This document shows, one piece after another, positions 17,657 through 64,000 of a stretch of 64,000 nt of DNA. Source of the stretch: a virus; the UHGV virus genome UHGV-0132893; one strand, 5' to 3'. Both the position numbers and the translations under genes were made by a program. The notes under the pieces were generated by a model, which saw only the letters and a list, made by a program, of their open reading frames with translations, made no database searches and had not been told where the DNA came from. Positions within the stretch are counted from its first letter, which is position 1. Every line of letters starts with the position of its first letter.

Positions 17657-17688
17657 GAGCAGCATAAACCAACGGGTACTCACCAGCA

Positions 17689-17846
17689 TCACTTAAGAGT
17701 CTTCTAAGAGGGTTTTTAAGTGATGTGAGGTATGGTAGTGTTCTGTTCGGTACGGTGTGGCACGGTAATGCTAGGTCTGGTCAGGTCGGGTCAGGTGCGG
17801 TACAGTATGGGTAGTTAGTCTCATCTACATTAAAATGAGACTTACC
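17689..17846. repeat. GGTNN pentamer-array element R1 (5' box, about 16 pentamers, 3' hairpin)
   Basis: ggtat ggtag tgttc ... ggtca ggtcg ggtca periodicity; hairpin agtctcat/atgagact with loop ctacattaaa. Confidence 0.7.
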
Positions 17847-17990
17847 TTTTTAAAAGGTCTTTAAGAGGGTTTTTTAATGAGGTAGGGTAAAGTAATGTTT
17901 GGTCTGGTTTGGTAAGGCGCGGTCTGGTTTGGTAAGGTAAGGTTCGGTATGGTATGGGTGGATGGTAGTAGCCACGTTAAAAATCTACCA
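17847..17990. repeat. GGTNN pentamer-array element R2
   Basis: ggtct ggttt ggtaa ggcgc ggtct ggttt ggtaa ggtaa ...; hairpin tggtag/ctacca. Confidence 0.7.
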
Positions 17991-18047
17991 AGTTTCTAAA
18001 GAGTCTTCTGTTGAGGGTTCTTTACAAACAACTTAACAATCAACTAA

Positions 18048-18653
<606 letters not shown>

Positions 18654-18655
18654 TT

Positions 18656-19096
18656 ATGAATACAAAAGCATTAGCAGCAAAGTTTAGTTACGGTGACACT
18701 GTATCACACTCTGAGATGGACACCTTCTTAGGTATTGTGAAGCCAACTTATCAAGGTGACATTGTTAAGTACGAAGATGAAATGAAGGCTTATGCGCTTA
18801 CACGTCTAAACCGACTTGAGAAGTTTATTGAGAAGCTTCTTAAAGAAGAGAAGATTTATCTGGTTGCTTCAATGGGTGTTGGTTATCGTGTGGTTGAACC
18901 TAAGCATCAAGCAACTATTGCAAAACGTAAAATGTCTGGTAAGATTGGTCGCGCTTTAAAGCAAGCCACTCAAGCGATTGAGAATGTGAACACTATGGCA
19001 CTTAGCCATCAAGAACGCTCACGACTGATTGAACAGCAAAACCATTTAGCTGCTATGAAAGCTAACATTAACAAGCAACGTAGAAAACCTTTCTAA
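18656..19096 (+). CDS. hypothetical protein (cassette gene 2)
   Basis: 146-aa ORF, 2-nt gap from upstream gene. Confidence 0.45.
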   Translation: MNTKALAAKFSYGDTVSHSEMDTFLGIVKPTYQGDIVKYEDEMKAYALTRLNRLEKFIEKLLKEEKIYLVASMGVGYRVVEPKHQATIAKRKMSGKIGRALKQATQAIENVNTMALSHQERSRLIEQQNHLAAMKANINKQRRKPF

Positions 19097-19107
19097 GTTG
19101 ACTAGGT

Positions 19108-19130
19108 AGCCTCTTCGGAGGCTCCTTTTT
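19108..19130 (+). terminator. rho-independent terminator
   Basis: agcctc-ttcg-gaggct stem then cc-TTTTT. Confidence 0.55.
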
Positions 19131-19260
19131 AAAAGGTCTTTAAGAGGGTCTTTTAATAAGGTAAGGCACGGTTATGTCAGGTATGGTACGGTACGGTTAG
19201 GTAAGGTGAGGCGGAGTAAGGTATGGGTAGTTAATCGGAGCTACATTAAAATTCGATTAC
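19126..19260. repeat. GGTNN pentamer-array element R3
   Basis: 5' box like R2, 3' hairpin like R1 with compensatory stem (taatcg/cgatta). Confidence 0.7.
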
Positions 19261-19392
19261 ATCACTTAAGAGTCTTTTAAGAGGGTTTTTAAGTGAGGTG
19301 TGGCACGGTAATGTTAGGTAGGGTCAGGTCAGGTCAGGTGAGGTAAGGTGATGTATGGAAGGATGGCAGTAGCCTTATAAAAAATCTGCCAA
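19261..19392. repeat. GGTNN pentamer-array element R4
   Basis: 5' box like R1, 3' hairpin like R2 with compensatory stem (tggcag/ctgcca). Confidence 0.7.
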
Positions 19393-55690: not shown

Positions 55691-56062
55691 ATGAAAGCTA
55701 AGAGTGCAAAAGACTTTTATTGCTTCCTACAATCCTATATCAATTCCGTGCAAAATGGTGAAAGGTACAACCTTAATGATGTTATCCCAACACCTTTGAC
55801 ATGGAGACTCAGTAAATGGCCTGAAGAAGATATTACACCAACAATCGAACAATGCACCTACAAACCCGAAATCAATATTCCAGACTCTGAGAATCTATTA
55901 TATCCAATGTTCCATATTGTTGGTCTTGGAAGATTCCTTATGGATATCCAGTATGTAATTGGTAAAGGTTATAAGGTTAAAGGTATTGTTGTTGGTGATG
56001 TATCTCCGAATCGCAAAGGTTATTTTAGACTAAACGCACATTTAGAGGCTGAAAAGAAATGA
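55691..56062 (+). CDS. hypothetical protein, paralog of N-terminal domain of next gene
   Basis: shares KDF..F...I..V..G.RY...WPE.DI...YKP...LLY...F.MD.QY.I..G pattern with ORF 56059. Confidence 0.45.
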   Translation: MKAKSAKDFYCFLQSYINSVQNGERYNLNDVIPTPLTWRLSKWPEEDITPTIEQCTYKPEINIPDSENLLYPMFHIVGLGRFLMDIQYVIGKGYKVKGIVVGDVSPNRKGYFRLNAHLEAEKK

Positions 56063-56943
56063 TTAAAGCAAAGACTTACCCAGACTTCAAAGAGTTTGTG
56101 AAGGGCTTCATTGCAAACGTAAAGGCTGGTAAGAGGTATGATTTTAGAACATATCAAGAGGCTATTTTACCACTTACCTATAGCTCGTATTGGCCTGAAG
56201 CTGATATTGCAGAAGTTGAGAAGTTTGACTATAAACCAGACTATAAAGTTCCTTTTAGTGATGAACTCCTTTACAGTGTTGGTGCACAGATGAGAACTGC
56301 TGATTTCTTCATGGATTTGCAGTATGCAATCATCAATGGTAAAGATGTTGACACTATTTACTGTGAATGGTTGGCAAGAGTTAAGCCGTTCTCAATGTTG
56401 AATGCTAAGCTGAAGGATGCTATCAAGCCACCAGCAATTACTCAGCAACCAACAGGTCAAACAGTCAATGAGGGTGGCACACTTACCCTAAGCATTCTAG
56501 CAACTAACGCCACTGGGTATCAGTGGAAGAAGGATGGTGAGGATATCCCTAGTGCCAATTCTGCAACTTACACAAAACAGTCAGTAGCACCTTCTGATGC
56601 TGGTTCATACACTTGTGTTGTATCTGGAGAGGGTGGAACAAGTGTTACCTCAGATGCAGCAACAGTGACTGTGAATGCACTTCCAGTAATCACTCAACAG
56701 CCAACCAATCAAGAAATCACTGAAGGTGAAACCTTAACGCTGAATGTTGTGGCAACAGGTGCGACAGGTTACCAGTGGAAGAAAGGTGAGGAAGACATCC
56801 TCGATGCAACTACTGCAACTTACACCAAAGAAGGTGCAACCGCTGCTGATTCAGGAAGCTACACCTGTGTAGTGACTGGTGCAGGTGGTTCTGTAACGTC
56901 TAATGCTGCAACAGTTACTGTTAACCCAGCAGGGGAGGCATAA
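56059..56943 (+). CDS. protein with two tandem Ig-like domains
   Basis: two ~85-aa repeats (ITQQPT...TGYQWKK...SGSYTCVV...ATVTVN), immunoglobulin-like signature. Confidence 0.55.
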   Translation: MIKAKTYPDFKEFVKGFIANVKAGKRYDFRTYQEAILPLTYSSYWPEADIAEVEKFDYKPDYKVPFSDELLYSVGAQMRTADFFMDLQYAIINGKDVDTIYCEWLARVKPFSMLNAKLKDAIKPPAITQQPTGQTVNEGGTLTLSILATNATGYQWKKDGEDIPSANSATYTKQSVAPSDAGSYTCVVSGEGGTSVTSDAATVTVNALPVITQQPTNQEITEGETLTLNVVATGATGYQWKKGEEDILDATTATYTKEGATAADSGSYTCVVTGAGGSVTSNAATVTVNPAGEA

Positions 56944-57407
56944 TGCAACTCTCAAGAAAAGGTTTAGAAGCTATTAAGTTCTTCGAAGGTCTGGAGTTAG
57001 AGGCTTACGAAGACTCTGCCGGAATCCCAACAATCGGGTATGGTACAATCCGTATTGACGGAAAACCTGTTAAGATGGGAATGAAAATCACCGCTGAACA
57101 AGCTGAACAGTATCTTCTCGCGGATGTTGAGAAGTTTGTTGCAGCAGTGAACAAAGCTATCAAGGTTCCAACTACTCAGAATGAGTTCGATGCACTTGTA
57201 AGTGAAACATACAACATCGGTATCACAGCTATGCAGGATTCCACATTTATCAAGCGCCACAATGCTGGTAATAAGGTAGGTTGTGCAGAAGCTATGCAGT
57301 GGTGGAACAAGGTTACAGTCAAAGGTAAGAAGGTCACTTCAAACGGTCTGAAAAACAGACGTAGAATGGAAGCTGACATTTATCTTGACAGTGTATACCC
57401 AAAGTAA
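56943..57407 (+). CDS. endolysin, GH24 lysozyme (T4 lysozyme / lambda R family)
   Basis: FEGLELEAYEDSAGIPTIGYGT catalytic E/D/T pattern. Confidence 0.8.
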   Translation: MQLSRKGLEAIKFFEGLELEAYEDSAGIPTIGYGTIRIDGKPVKMGMKITAEQAEQYLLADVEKFVAAVNKAIKVPTTQNEFDALVSETYNIGITAMQDSTFIKRHNAGNKVGCAEAMQWWNKVTVKGKKVTSNGLKNRRRMEADIYLDSVYPK

Positions 57408-57416
57408 TATCTTCAT

Positions 57417-57440
57417 AGGCTCCTTCGGGAGCCTTTTTTA
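57417..57440 (+). terminator. rho-independent terminator after lysozyme
   Basis: aggctcc-ttcg-ggagcct then TTTTTT. Confidence 0.55.
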
Positions 57441-57458: not shown

Positions 57459-57857
57459 ATGAAACTTTGGGCTAGTGACTTTGGAACTTTTAAGTACACT
57501 CGTAATGGCTCGCTTGTACGCATTGTCGGGAACAATGTGGTTTCAAGAGGTGACAAGGTATATACACGGTTTACTGTAGAGCTTGTTGAGCTGTCACCTA
57601 TTGAGTCTGTGAACAATGGCCTGTTCAAGTTTGAGACTTACAATGTCAACGAACATGGACAATTCAACCCTCTTGGTGAAAGTGGACTTGATATTATTTC
57701 AGAGCACCCATTGACAAAAGAGCAACTCGCAAGTTATTATAAAACTGTTCTGGAAAGGCAGTTAGCAACACATGAACAAGAAGCTAACTATCATTTACAA
57801 CATTGCGAAGCTTTAAGAGCAAAAATAGAACAAGCAGAGAGAGGTTTTTATGAATAA
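57459..57857 (+). CDS. hypothetical protein (3' third lies in tandem repeat copy 1)
   Basis: 132-aa ORF. Confidence 0.45.
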   Translation: MKLWASDFGTFKYTRNGSLVRIVGNNVVSRGDKVYTRFTVELVELSPIESVNNGLFKFETYNVNEHGQFNPLGESGLDIISEHPLTKEQLASYYKTVLERQLATHEQEANYHLQHCEALRAKIEQAERGFYE

Positions 57858-58493
57858 AGAGATTCAAGTAAAAGTTGACACCTTTGGCCATGATGGTCGA
57901 GAAGATGCTGGACTTGCTGACGCAGTGATTTTTGAGTGTAATGGAAATATTAGTCTTCGCTTTACAGGCTCAGGTAGCACCCTTCGCAGAATGCGAGATG
58001 ATGCAGATGGTTGCCCTGTATTTGGCTGGTATGACATGGAGTTTCCTCTTTACGCCATCCATTATCCAGATGGTGGAGAAGACTGGACAACTCAATCAAT
58101 CCGCGATGAGCTTAATGGCATTCCAGTTGAGCAAGAAGAGCAAGAGCCTGTTGAACTCACATTCACTTTTATCAAAGAAGAGAAAGTTGGTGATTTGTCT
58201 GTAACTGAAGCAATTCAAGTCTCACAGGTTATTCGTTAATGAGTAAAGTACAGGTTGTTTTCCCTATTTGTGACTTCTCACTAGAGCGTGAACTTGACCT
58301 GTACGAAGAAATTACTGACGAAATCATCTGGTCTGTTGTAGAAGAGGCTATCAAGAAACTGTATGGTGGCCTCTTAAACCCATCAAGTAAAAAGCTCAAT
58401 ACTAAACAAGTAGCTGATACGTACACTTCATACGATGCCTACAACAAACCTTTTGAGAATACCTGCTTTGACCTTATGGTAGGCAATAATAAA
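57645..58493. repeat. 849-bp tandem direct repeat, copy 1
   Basis: identical to 58494-59342; bounded by 6-bp microhomology gtcaac. Confidence 0.75.
57850..58239 (+). CDS. hypothetical acidic protein (copy 1 of duplicated gene)
   Basis: 129 aa, identical to ORF 58699..59088. Confidence 0.45.
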   Translation: MNKEIQVKVDTFGHDGREDAGLADAVIFECNGNISLRFTGSGSTLRRMRDDADGCPVFGWYDMEFPLYAIHYPDGGEDWTTQSIRDELNGIPVEQEEQEPVELTFTFIKEEKVGDLSVTEAIQVSQVIR

Positions 58494-58706
58494 GTCAACG
58501 AACATGGACAATTCAACCCTCTTGGTGAAAGTGGACTTGATATTATTTCAGAGCACCCATTGACAAAAGAGCAACTCGCAAGTTATTATAAAACTGTTCT
58601 GGAAAGGCAGTTAGCAACACATGAACAAGAAGCTAACTATCATTTACAACATTGCGAAGCTTTAAGAGCAAAAATAGAACAAGCAGAGAGAGGTTTTTAT
58701 GAATAA
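58239..58706 (+). CDS. chimeric ORF created by the tandem duplication
   Basis: N-terminal 85 aa identical to ORF 59088..59381, C-terminal ~68 aa identical to end of ORF 57459..57857. Confidence 0.4.
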   Translation: MSKVQVVFPICDFSLERELDLYEEITDEIIWSVVEEAIKKLYGGLLNPSSKKLNTKQVADTYTSYDAYNKPFENTCFDLMVGNNKVNEHGQFNPLGESGLDIISEHPLTKEQLASYYKTVLERQLATHEQEANYHLQHCEALRAKIEQAERGFYE

Positions 58707-59342
58707 AGAGATTCAAGTAAAAGTTGACACCTTTGGCCATGATGGTCGAGAAGATGCTGGACTTGCTGACGCAGTGATTTTTGAGTGTAATGGAAATATT
58801 AGTCTTCGCTTTACAGGCTCAGGTAGCACCCTTCGCAGAATGCGAGATGATGCAGATGGTTGCCCTGTATTTGGCTGGTATGACATGGAGTTTCCTCTTT
58901 ACGCCATCCATTATCCAGATGGTGGAGAAGACTGGACAACTCAATCAATCCGCGATGAGCTTAATGGCATTCCAGTTGAGCAAGAAGAGCAAGAGCCTGT
59001 TGAACTCACATTCACTTTTATCAAAGAAGAGAAAGTTGGTGATTTGTCTGTAACTGAAGCAATTCAAGTCTCACAGGTTATTCGTTAATGAGTAAAGTAC
59101 AGGTTGTTTTCCCTATTTGTGACTTCTCACTAGAGCGTGAACTTGACCTGTACGAAGAAATTACTGACGAAATCATCTGGTCTGTTGTAGAAGAGGCTAT
59201 CAAGAAACTGTATGGTGGCCTCTTAAACCCATCAAGTAAAAAGCTCAATACTAAACAAGTAGCTGATACGTACACTTCATACGATGCCTACAACAAACCT
59301 TTTGAGAATACCTGCTTTGACCTTATGGTAGGCAATAATAAA
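58494..59342. repeat. 849-bp tandem direct repeat, copy 2
   Basis: identical to 57645-58493. Confidence 0.75.
58699..59088 (+). CDS. hypothetical acidic protein (copy 2)
   Basis: identical to ORF 57850..58239. Confidence 0.45.
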   Translation: MNKEIQVKVDTFGHDGREDAGLADAVIFECNGNISLRFTGSGSTLRRMRDDADGCPVFGWYDMEFPLYAIHYPDGGEDWTTQSIRDELNGIPVEQEEQEPVELTFTFIKEEKVGDLSVTEAIQVSQVIR

Positions 59343-59381
59343 GTCAACTATTTCTTCGTCAGGGAGTTTAACGATGAGTAA
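59088..59381 (+). CDS. hypothetical protein (5' part in repeat copy 2)
   Basis: 97-aa ORF. Confidence 0.45.
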   Translation: MSKVQVVFPICDFSLERELDLYEEITDEIIWSVVEEAIKKLYGGLLNPSSKKLNTKQVADTYTSYDAYNKPFENTCFDLMVGNNKVNYFFVREFNDE

Positions 59382-59718
59382 GCTCCATGTCACAGTGTAC
59401 AAAAACTTCTCAGATATTAAAGAGTCTTTAACCAATAAGCTTGACATGCAACGGAAAAGACTCTTTTTAATGTATGACATTGATAACTACAACCACCCTA
59501 GAGAGTTTAACTACAAGGATGGTACAAAGGTTGTTGAATTTGAAGATTCTGTAACAGTGTATGTCAAACATGACTTACCAGCAAAGTACATAGGGATGTT
59601 AGAGTATTACATATTTAAGCATACAGGTATGCGTGGTGAGTCTGTCAAGATATCTTCTATAGAAGTTTTTGAGAAACCTAACACACAACTTAAAAAGTAT
59701 TTAATGAGGAAACTATAA
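59374..59718 (+). CDS. hypothetical protein
   Basis: 114-aa ORF. Confidence 0.45.
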   Translation: MSKLHVTVYKNFSDIKESLTNKLDMQRKRLFLMYDIDNYNHPREFNYKDGTKVVEFEDSVTVYVKHDLPAKYIGMLEYYIFKHTGMRGESVKISSIEVFEKPNTQLKKYLMRKL

Positions 59719-60299
59719 TGTCAGAAGAACATGAGCACATCCAACCAGAAGTTACATTAGTCAAACATTTCGGGAATGTAGAAGGCTGTGTAGCACTTTT
59801 TCAGACCAACATTAACTCTCCAGTCAAACTGTGCAAATTGACGATAAACACCAACAACATCAGTGTATGTGTGAATGAAGAAGTTCAATACTTCAAATTC
59901 AATGACAAAGAGGTCGATGCTGCACTATTGAAATATAGAGCAAATCTTGAAAAAGATATTGACCATAAAGAGGTGGTGAGTCTCTTTGCAGACCTTCATA
60001 AGCTTCTTGATAAGGTTGAAAAAAGAACATACTACATGAATAATGGTTCTATCATTACCACTATGATTTCGCCATGTATCTCTGAGCCAATCTTCACAGA
60101 TGACGGTGCTTACTACATTGTAGCTTCAGCGGTATCTGATTGGTGGTTAAAGAACAACGCCCTTAAAACAGTGATTGATGCTATCAGAGAGCACATTCCG
60201 ACATTCAGCCCGTGGAAGGGTAAAGGTGATGAATTTATCGCACTATTGAGTGAAGAGAGCAATAAGCGCAGTGCATTACTGCCTAAAAAATACTCTTGA
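59718..60299 (+). CDS. hypothetical protein
   Basis: 193-aa ORF. Confidence 0.45.
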   Translation: MSEEHEHIQPEVTLVKHFGNVEGCVALFQTNINSPVKLCKLTINTNNISVCVNEEVQYFKFNDKEVDAALLKYRANLEKDIDHKEVVSLFADLHKLLDKVEKRTYYMNNGSIITTMISPCISEPIFTDDGAYYIVASAVSDWWLKNNALKTVIDAIREHIPTFSPWKGKGDEFIALLSEESNKRSALLPKKYS

Positions 60300-60382
60300 C
60301 CGAATATACAACATTAACTATGATGGGAGCTATCGAGAGGTAGTTCCCTTTTTAGTTTCTTGAGAAGATACGTGGTGAAAGA

Positions 60383-62949: not shown

Positions 62950-64000
62950 TTTATCGGTTGTCCCAACCGCTGGGTCACCATCATATGTGAATAAAATATC
63001 TACCCTTCTTAACAACCTTCTTAATCTTACTCTCTATATAGTTATATAGTACTATATAGTATCTTAGTATCTATCTAGTGGTCTTAATAGCCCCTCTGTA
63101 TAGCCCTTCTAAACACTCTTCTAACAAGCCTTCTTAACAACCTATACAATCACCTTAACCATCTCTCTACACCCTCTTAGAAGCTCCTATACACCTCTTA
63201 ATCTCTAGGTTAGCTATGTTACCCTCTATAGGTGTTCACTAGGCACTACTAAGCCTCTATATAGACTGTTTTAACAAACTTAACAGGAATATCTTTACAG
63301 ACCTTATCTCACAAGGTCTAACACGGTACTAACAAGGTATCTTATAAGCCTGTTTCTACCTGTATTTTTAAAAGACTGTCTAGGTAATTATTCAGAATTT
63401 TAAAATTTTTATAAAATAGGACTATCAAGTCATTTTTTAGGGTCTTTGAAGGGACTGAAAAATATCTGTAGAAGATGTATATCTGCTTGGTAGCCCTTAA
63501 CAGCCCTGTAACATCCCCTTTGCAAAATTTTAAAATATCCTTAACAATCTCTTAACAACTCTCTCAAGCTCTTAACAACTCTTCAAAAGTCTTAACAGAT
63601 TCTTAACAGAACTAACAAGGCTGTAACAGTTTTCTAACAAGTGCTGAATAGTCTTTACAGAATCTTAACAGATAACTAACGAGAGCTAACAAGTTAATTT
63701 TAAAGAGTTATTTTGTAGGGATAATTAACAAGTTCCTAACAAGTGTTTAATCTTTTTAACAAGCTATTAACATGGTCACTATCTCTTTTCTTATCGTTCC
63801 CTTTCCCTCTTAGTGATTCTCTAAATAGCCCTCTTAAAAGCTCTCTATAGCTCCTTGTAAGCTCTTTTAAGTCTCTTCCTAGTAATTACACCCCAACTAT
63901 ACAGACACCTCTTTATAGGGCTTTACAGAGGCTTTAAAGGCTATGCTAAAGACTCTTACAAGGCTTTTACGTGGTCTTAACAGAGATTTAACAAGGGGCT
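62950..64000. repeat. ORF-free array of short motifs: about 25 copies of CTTAACA(A/G)/CTAACAAG, plus TATATAGT and CTCTATAG copies
   Basis: e.g. cttaacaact at 63552 and 63571, cttaacagat at 63590; tatatagt x3 at 63036-63060; plus strand G-poor; no ORF >60 aa. Confidence 0.7.

What the first reader, a model, noticed from the sequence alone, without database searches (positions are those of the whole stretch)
57645..59348. Perfect 849-bp tandem duplication bounded by 6-bp microhomology, creating a chimeric ORF
57645-58493 and 58494-59342 appear identical (verified at both junctions and across the duplicated ORFs 57850..58239 and 58699..59088, which translate identically). The unit is bounded by gtcaac at 57645, 58494 and 59343. 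This leaves ORF A (57459..57857), B (57850..58239), a new in-frame chimera (58239..58706: N-terminus of the downstream gene fused to the C-terminus of ORF A), B' (58699..59088) and the intact downstream gene (59088..59381). Zero divergence over 849 bp implies a very recent microhomology-mediated duplication, ongoing homogenisation, or an assembly artefact. If real, it is a snapshot of gene birth in a phage accessory region.
Basis: seen in the sequence. Interest (0 to 1): 0.6.

Follow-up and report, generated by a model that had tools for sequence, protein, structure and literature searches.

The report
Fresh tandem duplication in gut phage
A Felix-O1-like E. coli phage assembled from a metagenome carries a brand-new 849-base head-to-tail duplication that doubles one small gene of unknown function and fuses pieces of its two neighbours; the duplication is real, but it is an ordinary, well-known kind of phage mutation caught very early.

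Summary
The genome is a Felixounavirus taken from a short-read SPAdes metagenome contig (ENA ERZ1744657 NODE_22). None of about 250 phage records, about 40 related metagenomic contigs or three large contig collections has the junction. The chimeric protein is unique among 5.8 billion proteins. A single-copy contig (ERZ857340 NODE_4373, also in IMG/VR) is 100% identical to the collapsed window over 36,154 nt, so the duplication is the only difference found.

It is not a SPAdes-only artefact. In an independent MEGAHIT k=141 assembly, one contig ends at 57785 (left edge + 141 - 1) and another starts at 59208 (right edge - 141 + 1). It is also not the terminal repeat, which lies about 4 kb downstream.

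"Zero divergence" says nothing about age, because both copies come from one collapsed graph edge. Copy number and population frequency are unknown. The anatomy matches the microhomology-mediated segmental duplications known from T4. The function of the doubled gene B is unknown, and "gene birth" is not shown. This is a new member of a known kind, of modest interest.

The parts
57385..57413 (+). sigma-70-like promoter candidate upstream of ORF A (TTGACA-17-TATCTT), the probable start of the A-E transcription unit
   Evidence: Consensus scan. The homologous site is annotated as a promoter in phage ASO1B. Bioinformatic only.
57417..57434 (+). terminator-like hairpin after the endolysin gene
57459..57857 (+). 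ORF A (132 aa, PHROG 4266, unknown function); intact
   Evidence: AF2 model: beta domain 11-44, low-confidence segment 52-76, long helix 87-127.
57645..57650 (+). left microhomology GTCAAC (codons V63-N64 of A)
   Evidence: Already present at this site in single-copy relatives.
57645..58493 (+). duplication unit, copy 1 (849 nt: 3' part of A, all of B, 5' part of C)
57711..57740 (+). promoter-like site inside the unit (TTGACA-18-TATTAT, 11 of 12), upstream of B; duplicated at 58560-58589
   Evidence: Consensus match only, and not annotated in ASO1B.
57850..58239 (+). ORF B (129 aa, PHROG 4348, unknown function), the only gene duplicated whole
58239..58706 (+). chimeric ORF (155 aa): C residues 1-87 fused in frame to A residues 65-132
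   Evidence: The exact protein is on one contig only, and the architecture is unique among 5.8 billion proteins.
58494..58499 (+). novel junction: the single retained copy of GTCAAC between the two units
   Evidence: Absent from all collections searched.
58494..59342 (+). duplication unit, copy 2
58699..59088 (+). ORF B' (identical second copy of B), with the same overlapping start/stop context as B
59088..59381 (+). ORF C (97 aa, PHROG 4385, unknown function); intact
59343..59348 (+). right microhomology GTCAAC (codons V86-N87 of C)
59374..60299 (+). ORFs D (114 aa) and E (193 aa), the rest of the operon; unaffected
60325..60348 (+). terminator-like hairpin that ends the A-E unit
   Evidence: The homologous site is annotated as a terminator in ASO1B.

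Best explanation
This is a genuine, very recent tandem duplication of 849 bp in the DNA of a Felixounavirus (FelixO1-like E. coli myovirus) that was blooming in one metagenome sample. In the single-copy parent, the hexamer GTCAAC occurs in ORF A and again 849 nt downstream in ORF C. During replication or recombination of concatemeric phage DNA, either a nascent end or a broken end paired at the wrong GTCAAC, or two sister copies recombined unequally there (inferred). That joined the C-side sequence to the A-side sequence and kept one hexamer at the junction.

The result is A - B - (C1-87::A65-132) - B' - C inside one five-gene operon. All overlapping start/stop signals are preserved, so the main expected effect is about a two-fold dose of gene B plus one new chimeric protein (inferred). 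No gene is lost and the genome grows by about 1%. It is most probably a transient polymorphism, neutral or mildly dosage-selected, carried by all or a sizeable part of that phage population. The true copy number and frequency are not known.
For: Shown:
- The repeat and the 6-nt overlap are exact. Such an overlap is unlikely for a blunt join (P = 0.0023).
- GTCAAC pre-exists at both sites, exactly 849 nt apart, in single-copy relatives.
- All of about 250 Felixounavirus records cover the 1923-nt region in 1074 nt, and none spans the junction.
- About 40 metagenomic or genomic contigs all have single-copy A-B-C.
- The junction is absent from IMG/VR, JGI metagenomes, GTDB genomes, complete E. coli genomes and plasmids. 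The positive control found 12 native sites in IMG/VR.
- The chimera is unique.
- A single-copy contig (ERZ857340 NODE_4373 = IMGVR_UViG_3300045988_004123) has 0 mismatches to the collapsed window over 14,008 + 7,863 + 14,283 nt.
- In the independent MEGAHIT k=141 assembly ERZ857176, contig k141_4589 is 100% identical to the window and ends at 57785 = 57645+141-1. Contig k141_3463 is 100% identical and starts at 59208 = 59348-141+1, and its first 141 nt are exactly the shared repeat k-mer.
- A third assembly's scaffold is 100% identical over 43 kb and ends, by coordinate arithmetic, at 57699 = 57645+55-1.
- The anatomy is the one described for T4 dmd-tifA segmental amplifications: 6-10 bp microhomologies that normally flank the segment, with one copy kept between repeats (PMC9391042).
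- Contig length minus 849 is 87,041, against 87,052 for a near-clonal single-copy contig. Felixounavirus records range up to 92.6 kb, so there is no packaging problem.
Against: No reads were available, so junction-spanning read counts, depth over the unit, copy number (2 or more) and the fraction of genomes carrying it are all unknown. The three assemblies that show the branch could be re-assemblies of one read set, so independent samples are not demonstrated. The identity of the two copies comes from the assembly method and is not independent evidence. A high-frequency in-vitro chimera would give the same assembly graph. The molecular route (slippage or template switching versus unequal recombination) cannot be told apart from sequence.
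Confidence: 0.78

Rival explanations
1. Adaptive 'genomic accordion': the duplication (possibly more than 2 copies) was selected because more of protein B, or the chimera, helps the phage overcome a host factor such as a defence system in the E. coli strain of that sample.
For: B is the only gene duplicated whole, and all its expression signals are preserved. The branch survived the pruning steps of two assemblers. By my recollection of MEGAHIT defaults (disconnect ratio 0.1, low-local ratio 0.2) this implies the junction is roughly 10-20% or more of local depth. An 849-bp tandem repeat should be lost quickly by homologous recombination unless it is new or selected (established knowledge). Near-clonal single-copy contigs (ERZ1743271, ERZ1744768) differ from the window over 8-18 kb almost only by a derived non-synonymous change in the same gene, B P100S. 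The operon has a host-type promoter and lies about 4-6 kb from a genome end, a typical place for early host-takeover genes. T4 amplifies tifA in exactly this way.
Confidence: 0.12
2. The junction is an in-vitro chimera (template switching at GTCAAC during library PCR or whole-genome amplification) that reached high frequency, so the phage genomes themselves are single copy.
For: In-vitro template switching also uses microhomology. The contig has very high coverage (cov 927), which lets rare junctions enter a graph. All evidence for the junction comes from assemblies that may share one library.
Against: Chimeric reads are scattered and individually rare, yet here a single junction survived the low-coverage pruning of two different assemblers. 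No other aberrant repeat or inverted repeat appears in 64 kb of the same contig. The sample appears to be a bulk stool shotgun metagenome: the record name GIBS16-1_SAMN04436737, and Gibson et al. 2016 = PRJNA301903. I could not read its methods.
Confidence: 0.07
3. An assembler-specific artefact: SPAdes walked a loop that does not exist in the reads.
For: The contig comes from a short-read de Bruijn assembler. The repeat (849 nt) is longer than usual inserts, so SPAdes cannot count copies.
Against: Six bases of homology are far below any k, so the junction k-mers must be in the reads. MEGAHIT (k=141) independently isolates the same unit with breaks at 57785 and 59208, exact to the base. Samples without the junction assemble straight through.
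Confidence: 0.02
4. The repeat is the phage's direct terminal repeat, written twice when a linear genome was circularised or rotated.
For: Felixounaviruses package with direct terminal repeats: 581 bp in Pr103Blw (PMC8303462).
Against: The homologue of that DTR maps to window ~63,489-64,079 and the contig ends at 64,055, about 4.1 kb downstream of the duplication. It is a different sequence and a different length. Relatives have this segment once, internally. A DTR join would not be expected to show a 6-nt overlap.
Confidence: 0.01

Closest known systems
Microhomology-mediated segmental (tandem) amplification in phage T4, e.g. the dmd-tifA locus (Srikant, Guegler & Laub 2022, PMC9391042; earlier T4 work is cited there)
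   Same: A head-to-tail repeat of a small multi-gene segment in a lytic E. coli myovirus. The boundaries lie at short microhomologies (6-10 bp in T4, 6 bp here) that pre-exist on both sides in the parent, and one copy is retained at each junction. The flanking genes are cut and fused. A small gene is duplicated whole together with its expression signals.
   Different: The T4 cases were selected in the laboratory, reach several copies, have a known beneficiary (TifA against ToxN), and force compensatory deletions because T4 packages by the headful. Here there is a single natural event seen in a metagenome. Two copies are written but the true number is unknown. The function of the duplicated gene is unknown, no compensating deletion is apparent, and the phage packages by DTR, so about 1% extra DNA should be tolerated.
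Poxvirus 'genomic accordion' (K3L amplification; Elde et al. 2012, as cited in PMC9391042)
   Same: A transient tandem gene amplification in a large dsDNA virus as a fast dosage response. Here a clone-mate lineage also carries a point change in the same gene.
   Different: There is no evidence here of copy-number variation, of selection, or of a causal link between the duplication and the P100S polymorphism.
Homing-endonuclease-promoted amplification of anti-defence loci in T6 (SegB; PMC13096335, abstract seen)
   Same: Segmental amplification of small accessory loci in a T-even-like phage.
   Different: No homing endonuclease gene or cleavage site is evident next to this unit. That mechanism was not tested here.

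Membership tests
Microhomology-mediated tandem segmental duplication of phage DNA (T4 dmd-tifA type) | Contiguous segment repeated head to tail in direct orientation | tested here: met
   849-nt units at 57645-58493 and 58494-59342, 100% identical
Microhomology-mediated tandem segmental duplication of phage DNA (T4 dmd-tifA type) | Short microhomology present at both boundaries in the single-copy parent, with one copy left at the junction | tested here: met
   GTCAAC at 57645, 58494 and 59343. It is present at both sites, 849 nt apart, in single-copy relatives and clone-mates. P = 0.0023 for a blunt join.
Microhomology-mediated tandem segmental duplication of phage DNA (T4 dmd-tifA type) | A single-copy parental state can be demonstrated | tested here: met
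   ERZ857340 NODE_4373 / IMGVR_UViG_3300045988_004123: 0 mismatches over 36,154 nt apart from the duplication
Microhomology-mediated tandem segmental duplication of phage DNA (T4 dmd-tifA type) | Raised read depth over the unit, or cross-repeat PCR or long-read product | not testable with these tools
   No reads are available. The indirect support is graph break points at both boundaries in an independent assembly.
Adaptive gene amplification ('genomic accordion') | The amplified gene gives a fitness benefit, and copy number varies with selection | not testable with these tools
   B has no recognisable function. Copy number is unknown.
Adaptive gene amplification ('genomic accordion') | Compensatory deletions elsewhere (headful phages) | tested here: not met
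   87,890 - 849 = 87,041 against 87,052 for a near-clonal single-copy contig. This is based on contig lengths only and is not expected for a DTR-packaging phage.
Direct terminal repeat of the phage genome | Lies at the physical genome ends and is shared by relatives at that place | tested here: not met
   The DTR homologue is at window ~63,489-64,079. Relatives hold the 849-nt segment once.
Assembler-only artefact | The junction is supported by one assembler's path only | tested here: not met
   MEGAHIT k141 contigs end at 57785 and start at 59208, exactly one k-mer inside each boundary
Genus Felixounavirus (identity of the host genome) | High nucleotide identity and synteny with FelixO1-like phages | tested here: met
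   94-97% identity over 3.4 kb to many Felixounavirus records, with the same gene order
D-alanyl-D-alanine carboxypeptidase (label given to ORF B in some records) | Match to a peptidase family or fold | tested here: not met

The most novel reading that the evidence does not exclude
A natural 'genomic accordion' caught in a human-gut phage bloom. Gene B, a conserved early-type Felixounavirus gene of unknown function, is under strong host-imposed selection in this cohort. One clone answers with a tandem duplication (dosage) and clone-mates with a P100S substitution, which would make B a candidate counter-defence or host-takeover factor.
Probability: 0.1. Interest if true: 0.6.

Novelty: new member of a known kind. 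Interest (0 to 1): 0.3.

Why it matters
Tandem segmental duplications at microhomologies are a known fast route of phage adaptation, but they have mostly been seen in laboratory evolution. Here one is caught in a natural population alongside its otherwise identical single-copy clone-mate. That gives a clean before/after pair and points to one conserved gene of unknown function (B) as worth testing.

There is also a practical lesson. A perfect repeat in a short-read contig says nothing about age or copy number. The positions where independent assemblies break, one k-mer inside each boundary, can be used to verify such a junction without access to reads.

Tried and rejected
- **Tandem Repeats Finder** did not report the repeat, because its period limit is 500.
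- **Junction searches**, both exact and degenerate, found nothing in IMG/VR, JGI metagenomes and GTDB genomes. The 200-nt junction query found nothing in phage, E. coli and plasmid collections.
- **Function of A, B, C, D and E:** Pfam, NCBIfam and PDB sequence searches found nothing significant. PHROGs placed them only in families of unknown function.
- **A chimera model was abandoned**, because MAFFT forced A's N-terminal half onto C's.
- **Fetching the sister contig with conserved proteins** returned another representative or unrelated short contigs. IMG/VR seed searches worked instead.
- **The Gibson 2016 paper is not held**, so library preparation is unverified.
- **A Felixounavirus challenge-evolution paper** held nothing on duplications.
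- **Rejected explanations:** mis-joined DTR, SPAdes-only artefact, and homogenisation of an old duplication, since all relatives lack it.

Full report
**1. The observation**

Reading the sequence and comparing it with itself at offset 849 shows one uninterrupted run of 855 matches (57645-58499). So 57645-58493 and 58494-59342 are identical, and GTCAAC stands at 57645, 58494 and 59343.

- A, 57459-57857
- B, 57850-58239
- an in-frame chimera, 58239-58706 (C residues 1-87 + A residues 65-132)
- B', 58699-59088
- C, 59088-59381

Nothing comparable exists elsewhere in the window. There is no other long exact direct repeat and no inverted repeat of 40 nt or more. In this sequence a random blunt tandem join would show 6 nt or more of overlap with P = 0.0023, so the microhomology is real. 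It is not exceptional, though. 150 other pairs of 6-9 nt flank B within the same operon.

**2. What genome this is**

The region is 94-97% identical to many Felixounavirus (FelixO1-like, E. coli/Salmonella/Shigella) myovirus genomes. Gene order is Ig-domain tail/decoration protein, endolysin, then five small genes A-B-C-D-E of unknown function.

A host-type promoter is predicted, and annotated in phage ASO1B, just upstream of A. A terminator follows E. The duplication is therefore internal to one transcription unit. A, B and C belong to PHROGs 4266, 4348 and 4385 (unknown function) and are present in essentially all relatives.

**3. Source and what that implies**

The exact chimeric protein is on record on a single contig, ENA ERZ1744657 NODE_22_length_87890_cov_927, which has SPAdes-style naming. 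The window is bases 23836-87835 of that contig.

In a de Bruijn-graph assembly of short reads, a repeat longer than the insert is one edge traversed twice. The 100% identity of the copies is therefore a product of the method and says nothing about age. The number of traversals (2) is also not a measurement. What the contig does require is junction k-mers in the reads, because 6 nt of homology is far below any k.

**4. Is the junction real?**

An independent assembly, ERZ857176 (MEGAHIT, k141 contig names), holds two contigs 100% identical to the window.
- k141_4589 (32,399 nt) ends at window 57785 = 57645+141-1.
- k141_3463 (53,935 nt) starts at 59208 = 59348-141+1. Its first 141 nt are exactly the last 141 nt of the repeated run, after which it follows the exit path. 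It has 0 mismatches over 4,793 nt.

These are the positions at which unitigs must stop if the graph branches at both duplication boundaries.

A third assembly's scaffold (GIBS16-1_SAMN04436737 scaffold_24) is 100% identical to the window over 43 kb. By coordinate arithmetic it ends at 57699 = 57645+55-1. This is inferred, not read.

Samples without the junction assemble straight through A-B-C. So the junction is in the reads and is not a SPAdes invention. Whether these assemblies share one read set I cannot tell.

**5. Uniqueness and recency**

- All of about 250 phage records cover the 1923-nt A-to-C query in 1074-1083 nt. None spans a 200-nt junction probe.
- About 40 metagenomic or genomic contigs carrying identical A, C, E, Ig-protein or the 142-aa protein all have single-copy A-B-C.
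- Exact and degenerate junction patterns are absent from IMG/VR, JGI metagenomes and GTDB genomes, while the native site is found 12 times in IMG/VR.
- Nothing was found in complete E. coli genomes or plasmids.
- A homology search with the chimera finds only itself at full length. All other hits are 97-aa C or 132-aa A proteins.
- Most tellingly, the single-copy contig ERZ857340 NODE_4373_length_73051 (= IMGVR_UViG_3300045988_004123) shows 0 mismatches to the collapsed window over 14,008 + 7,863 + 14,283 = 36,154 nt. The duplication is the only difference found.

Other near-clonal single-copy contigs (ERZ1743271 NODE_1, ERZ1744768 NODE_1) differ by a derived C-to-T change at 58147 (B Pro100Ser), plus one more site in 18 kb. 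GTCAAC is already present at both sites, 849 nt apart, in these and other relatives.

The same strain recurs in runs SRR3132329 and SRR3132044 and in the GIBS16-1 record. The name suggests the Gibson et al. 2016 preterm-infant gut cohort (PRJNA301903). This link is an inference from names.

**6. Rivals excluded**

Felixounaviruses package with direct terminal repeats, 581 bp in Pr103Blw (PMC8303462). That DTR's homologue lies at window ~63,489-64,079, and the contig ends at 64,055. This is about 4.1 kb from the duplication, so a mis-joined DTR is excluded.

An in-vitro chimera remains possible but unlikely. It would have to be a single junction frequent enough to survive pruning in two assemblers, with no other aberrant join in 64 kb.

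**7. Mechanism and consequences**

The anatomy is that of T4 segmental amplifications. Those have boundaries at 6-10 bp microhomologies that normally flank the locus, with one copy left between repeats, and are ascribed to recombination between the microhomologies (PMC9391042). I infer the same here: mispairing of a nascent or broken end, or unequal exchange between sister or concatemer copies, at GTCAAC.

As with any tandem duplication, A and C each stay intact once. B is doubled with its native overlapping start (ATGAATAA). The chimera keeps C's start context, and because 849 is a multiple of 3 it reads through to A's stop, so translational coupling into B' is preserved. In-frame fusion is a 1-in-3 chance.

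In the A model the breakpoint (V63/N64) lies in a low-confidence segment (52-76), between an N-terminal beta domain and a confident long helix 87-127. The chimera is therefore nearly all of C plus A's linker and helix. Whether it folds or acts is unknown.

B is a beta-rich protein with a length-variable acidic linker and has no family or fold match. The 'D-alanyl-D-alanine carboxypeptidase' label in some records is unsupported.

The genome grows by about 1%. Contig lengths (87,890-849 = 87,041 against 87,052) show no compensating deletion. Relatives reach 92.6 kb, so packaging should tolerate the extra DNA.

**8. Verdict**

This is a real, very young, microhomology-mediated tandem duplication present in at least a notable part of one natural phage population. 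It is a new instance of a well-known kind of event.

Selection for B dosage (a natural 'accordion') is possible. It is hinted at by the persistence of an unstable repeat and by the P100S polymorphism in the same gene. However, P100 lies in a variable linker and the function of B is unknown, so I give that reading about 10%. 'Gene birth' is not shown.

Noticed in passing
window 56059-56943 (294-aa Ig-domain protein upstream of the endolysin); relatives in L004-L047: The orthologue varies stepwise in length among relatives (84 fragment, then 210, 294, 377/378 and 460/461 aa). The steps of about 83 aa suggest gain and loss of whole Ig-like domains. This is a second, older example of tandem repeat-number change right next to the duplication.
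   Followed up: no
window 58120-58150 (ORF B residues ~94-100) and orthologues in L012, L019: B has an acidic Glu/Gln-rich linker of variable length (B is 126-140 aa among relatives, e.g. an EEQEEQEEQEER insertion). The P100S polymorphism of the clone-mates sits at its end.
   Followed up: partly
window 58147 (= 58996 in copy 2); L011, L032 versus L047, L063: Near-clonal single-copy contigs carry either C (Pro100, like the window) or T (Ser100). Two contigs of almost the same length (73,051 and 73,057 nt) from different submissions differ at this site, so it may be polymorphic within one sample.
   Followed up: partly
L056 (GCA_041893985.1 ABUOUX010000001.1), locus 1-632: A and B are fused into one 260-aa ORF by a frameshift just before B's start codon (…AEREVFMNKEIQ… instead of …AERGFYE*). 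This could be real or a homopolymer sequencing error.
   Followed up: partly
window 63489-64000 (continues to ~64079 beyond the window): This is the homologue of the 581-bp direct terminal repeat annotated in phage Pr103Blw. The source contig ends at window coordinate 64055, about 24 nt short of the homologous physical end, and other assemblies also break there. So the contig seems to stop at the true genome terminus. Short tandem repeats lie nearby (63033-63079, 63545-63597).
   Followed up: partly
window 17688-19359: There are four copies of a ~99-nt element. Each is a terminator-like hairpin (CCTTTTTAAAAGG...) followed by a run of 5-nt-periodic GGTNN repeats (GGTAAGGTAAGGCGCGGT...). TRF also reports them as 25-nt periods at 17900-17957 and 19160-19207.
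   Followed up: no
L024, L028, L029, L030, L032, L047 (several ENA, Logan and IMG/VR records): The same phage strain, with 0-3 differences per 15-20 kb, turns up in many assemblies. These include runs SRR3132329 and SRR3132044 and a record named GIBS16-1_SAMN04436737. This suggests one clone persisting or spreading within a single infant-gut cohort.
   Followed up: partly
L031, L046, L051, L055-L057 (NCBI GCA_ bacterial assemblies): Near-complete Felixounavirus genomes (69-89 kb contigs) sit inside E. coli isolate assemblies, although these phages are strictly lytic. That points to carrier-state infection or contamination of the sequenced cultures.
   Followed up: no
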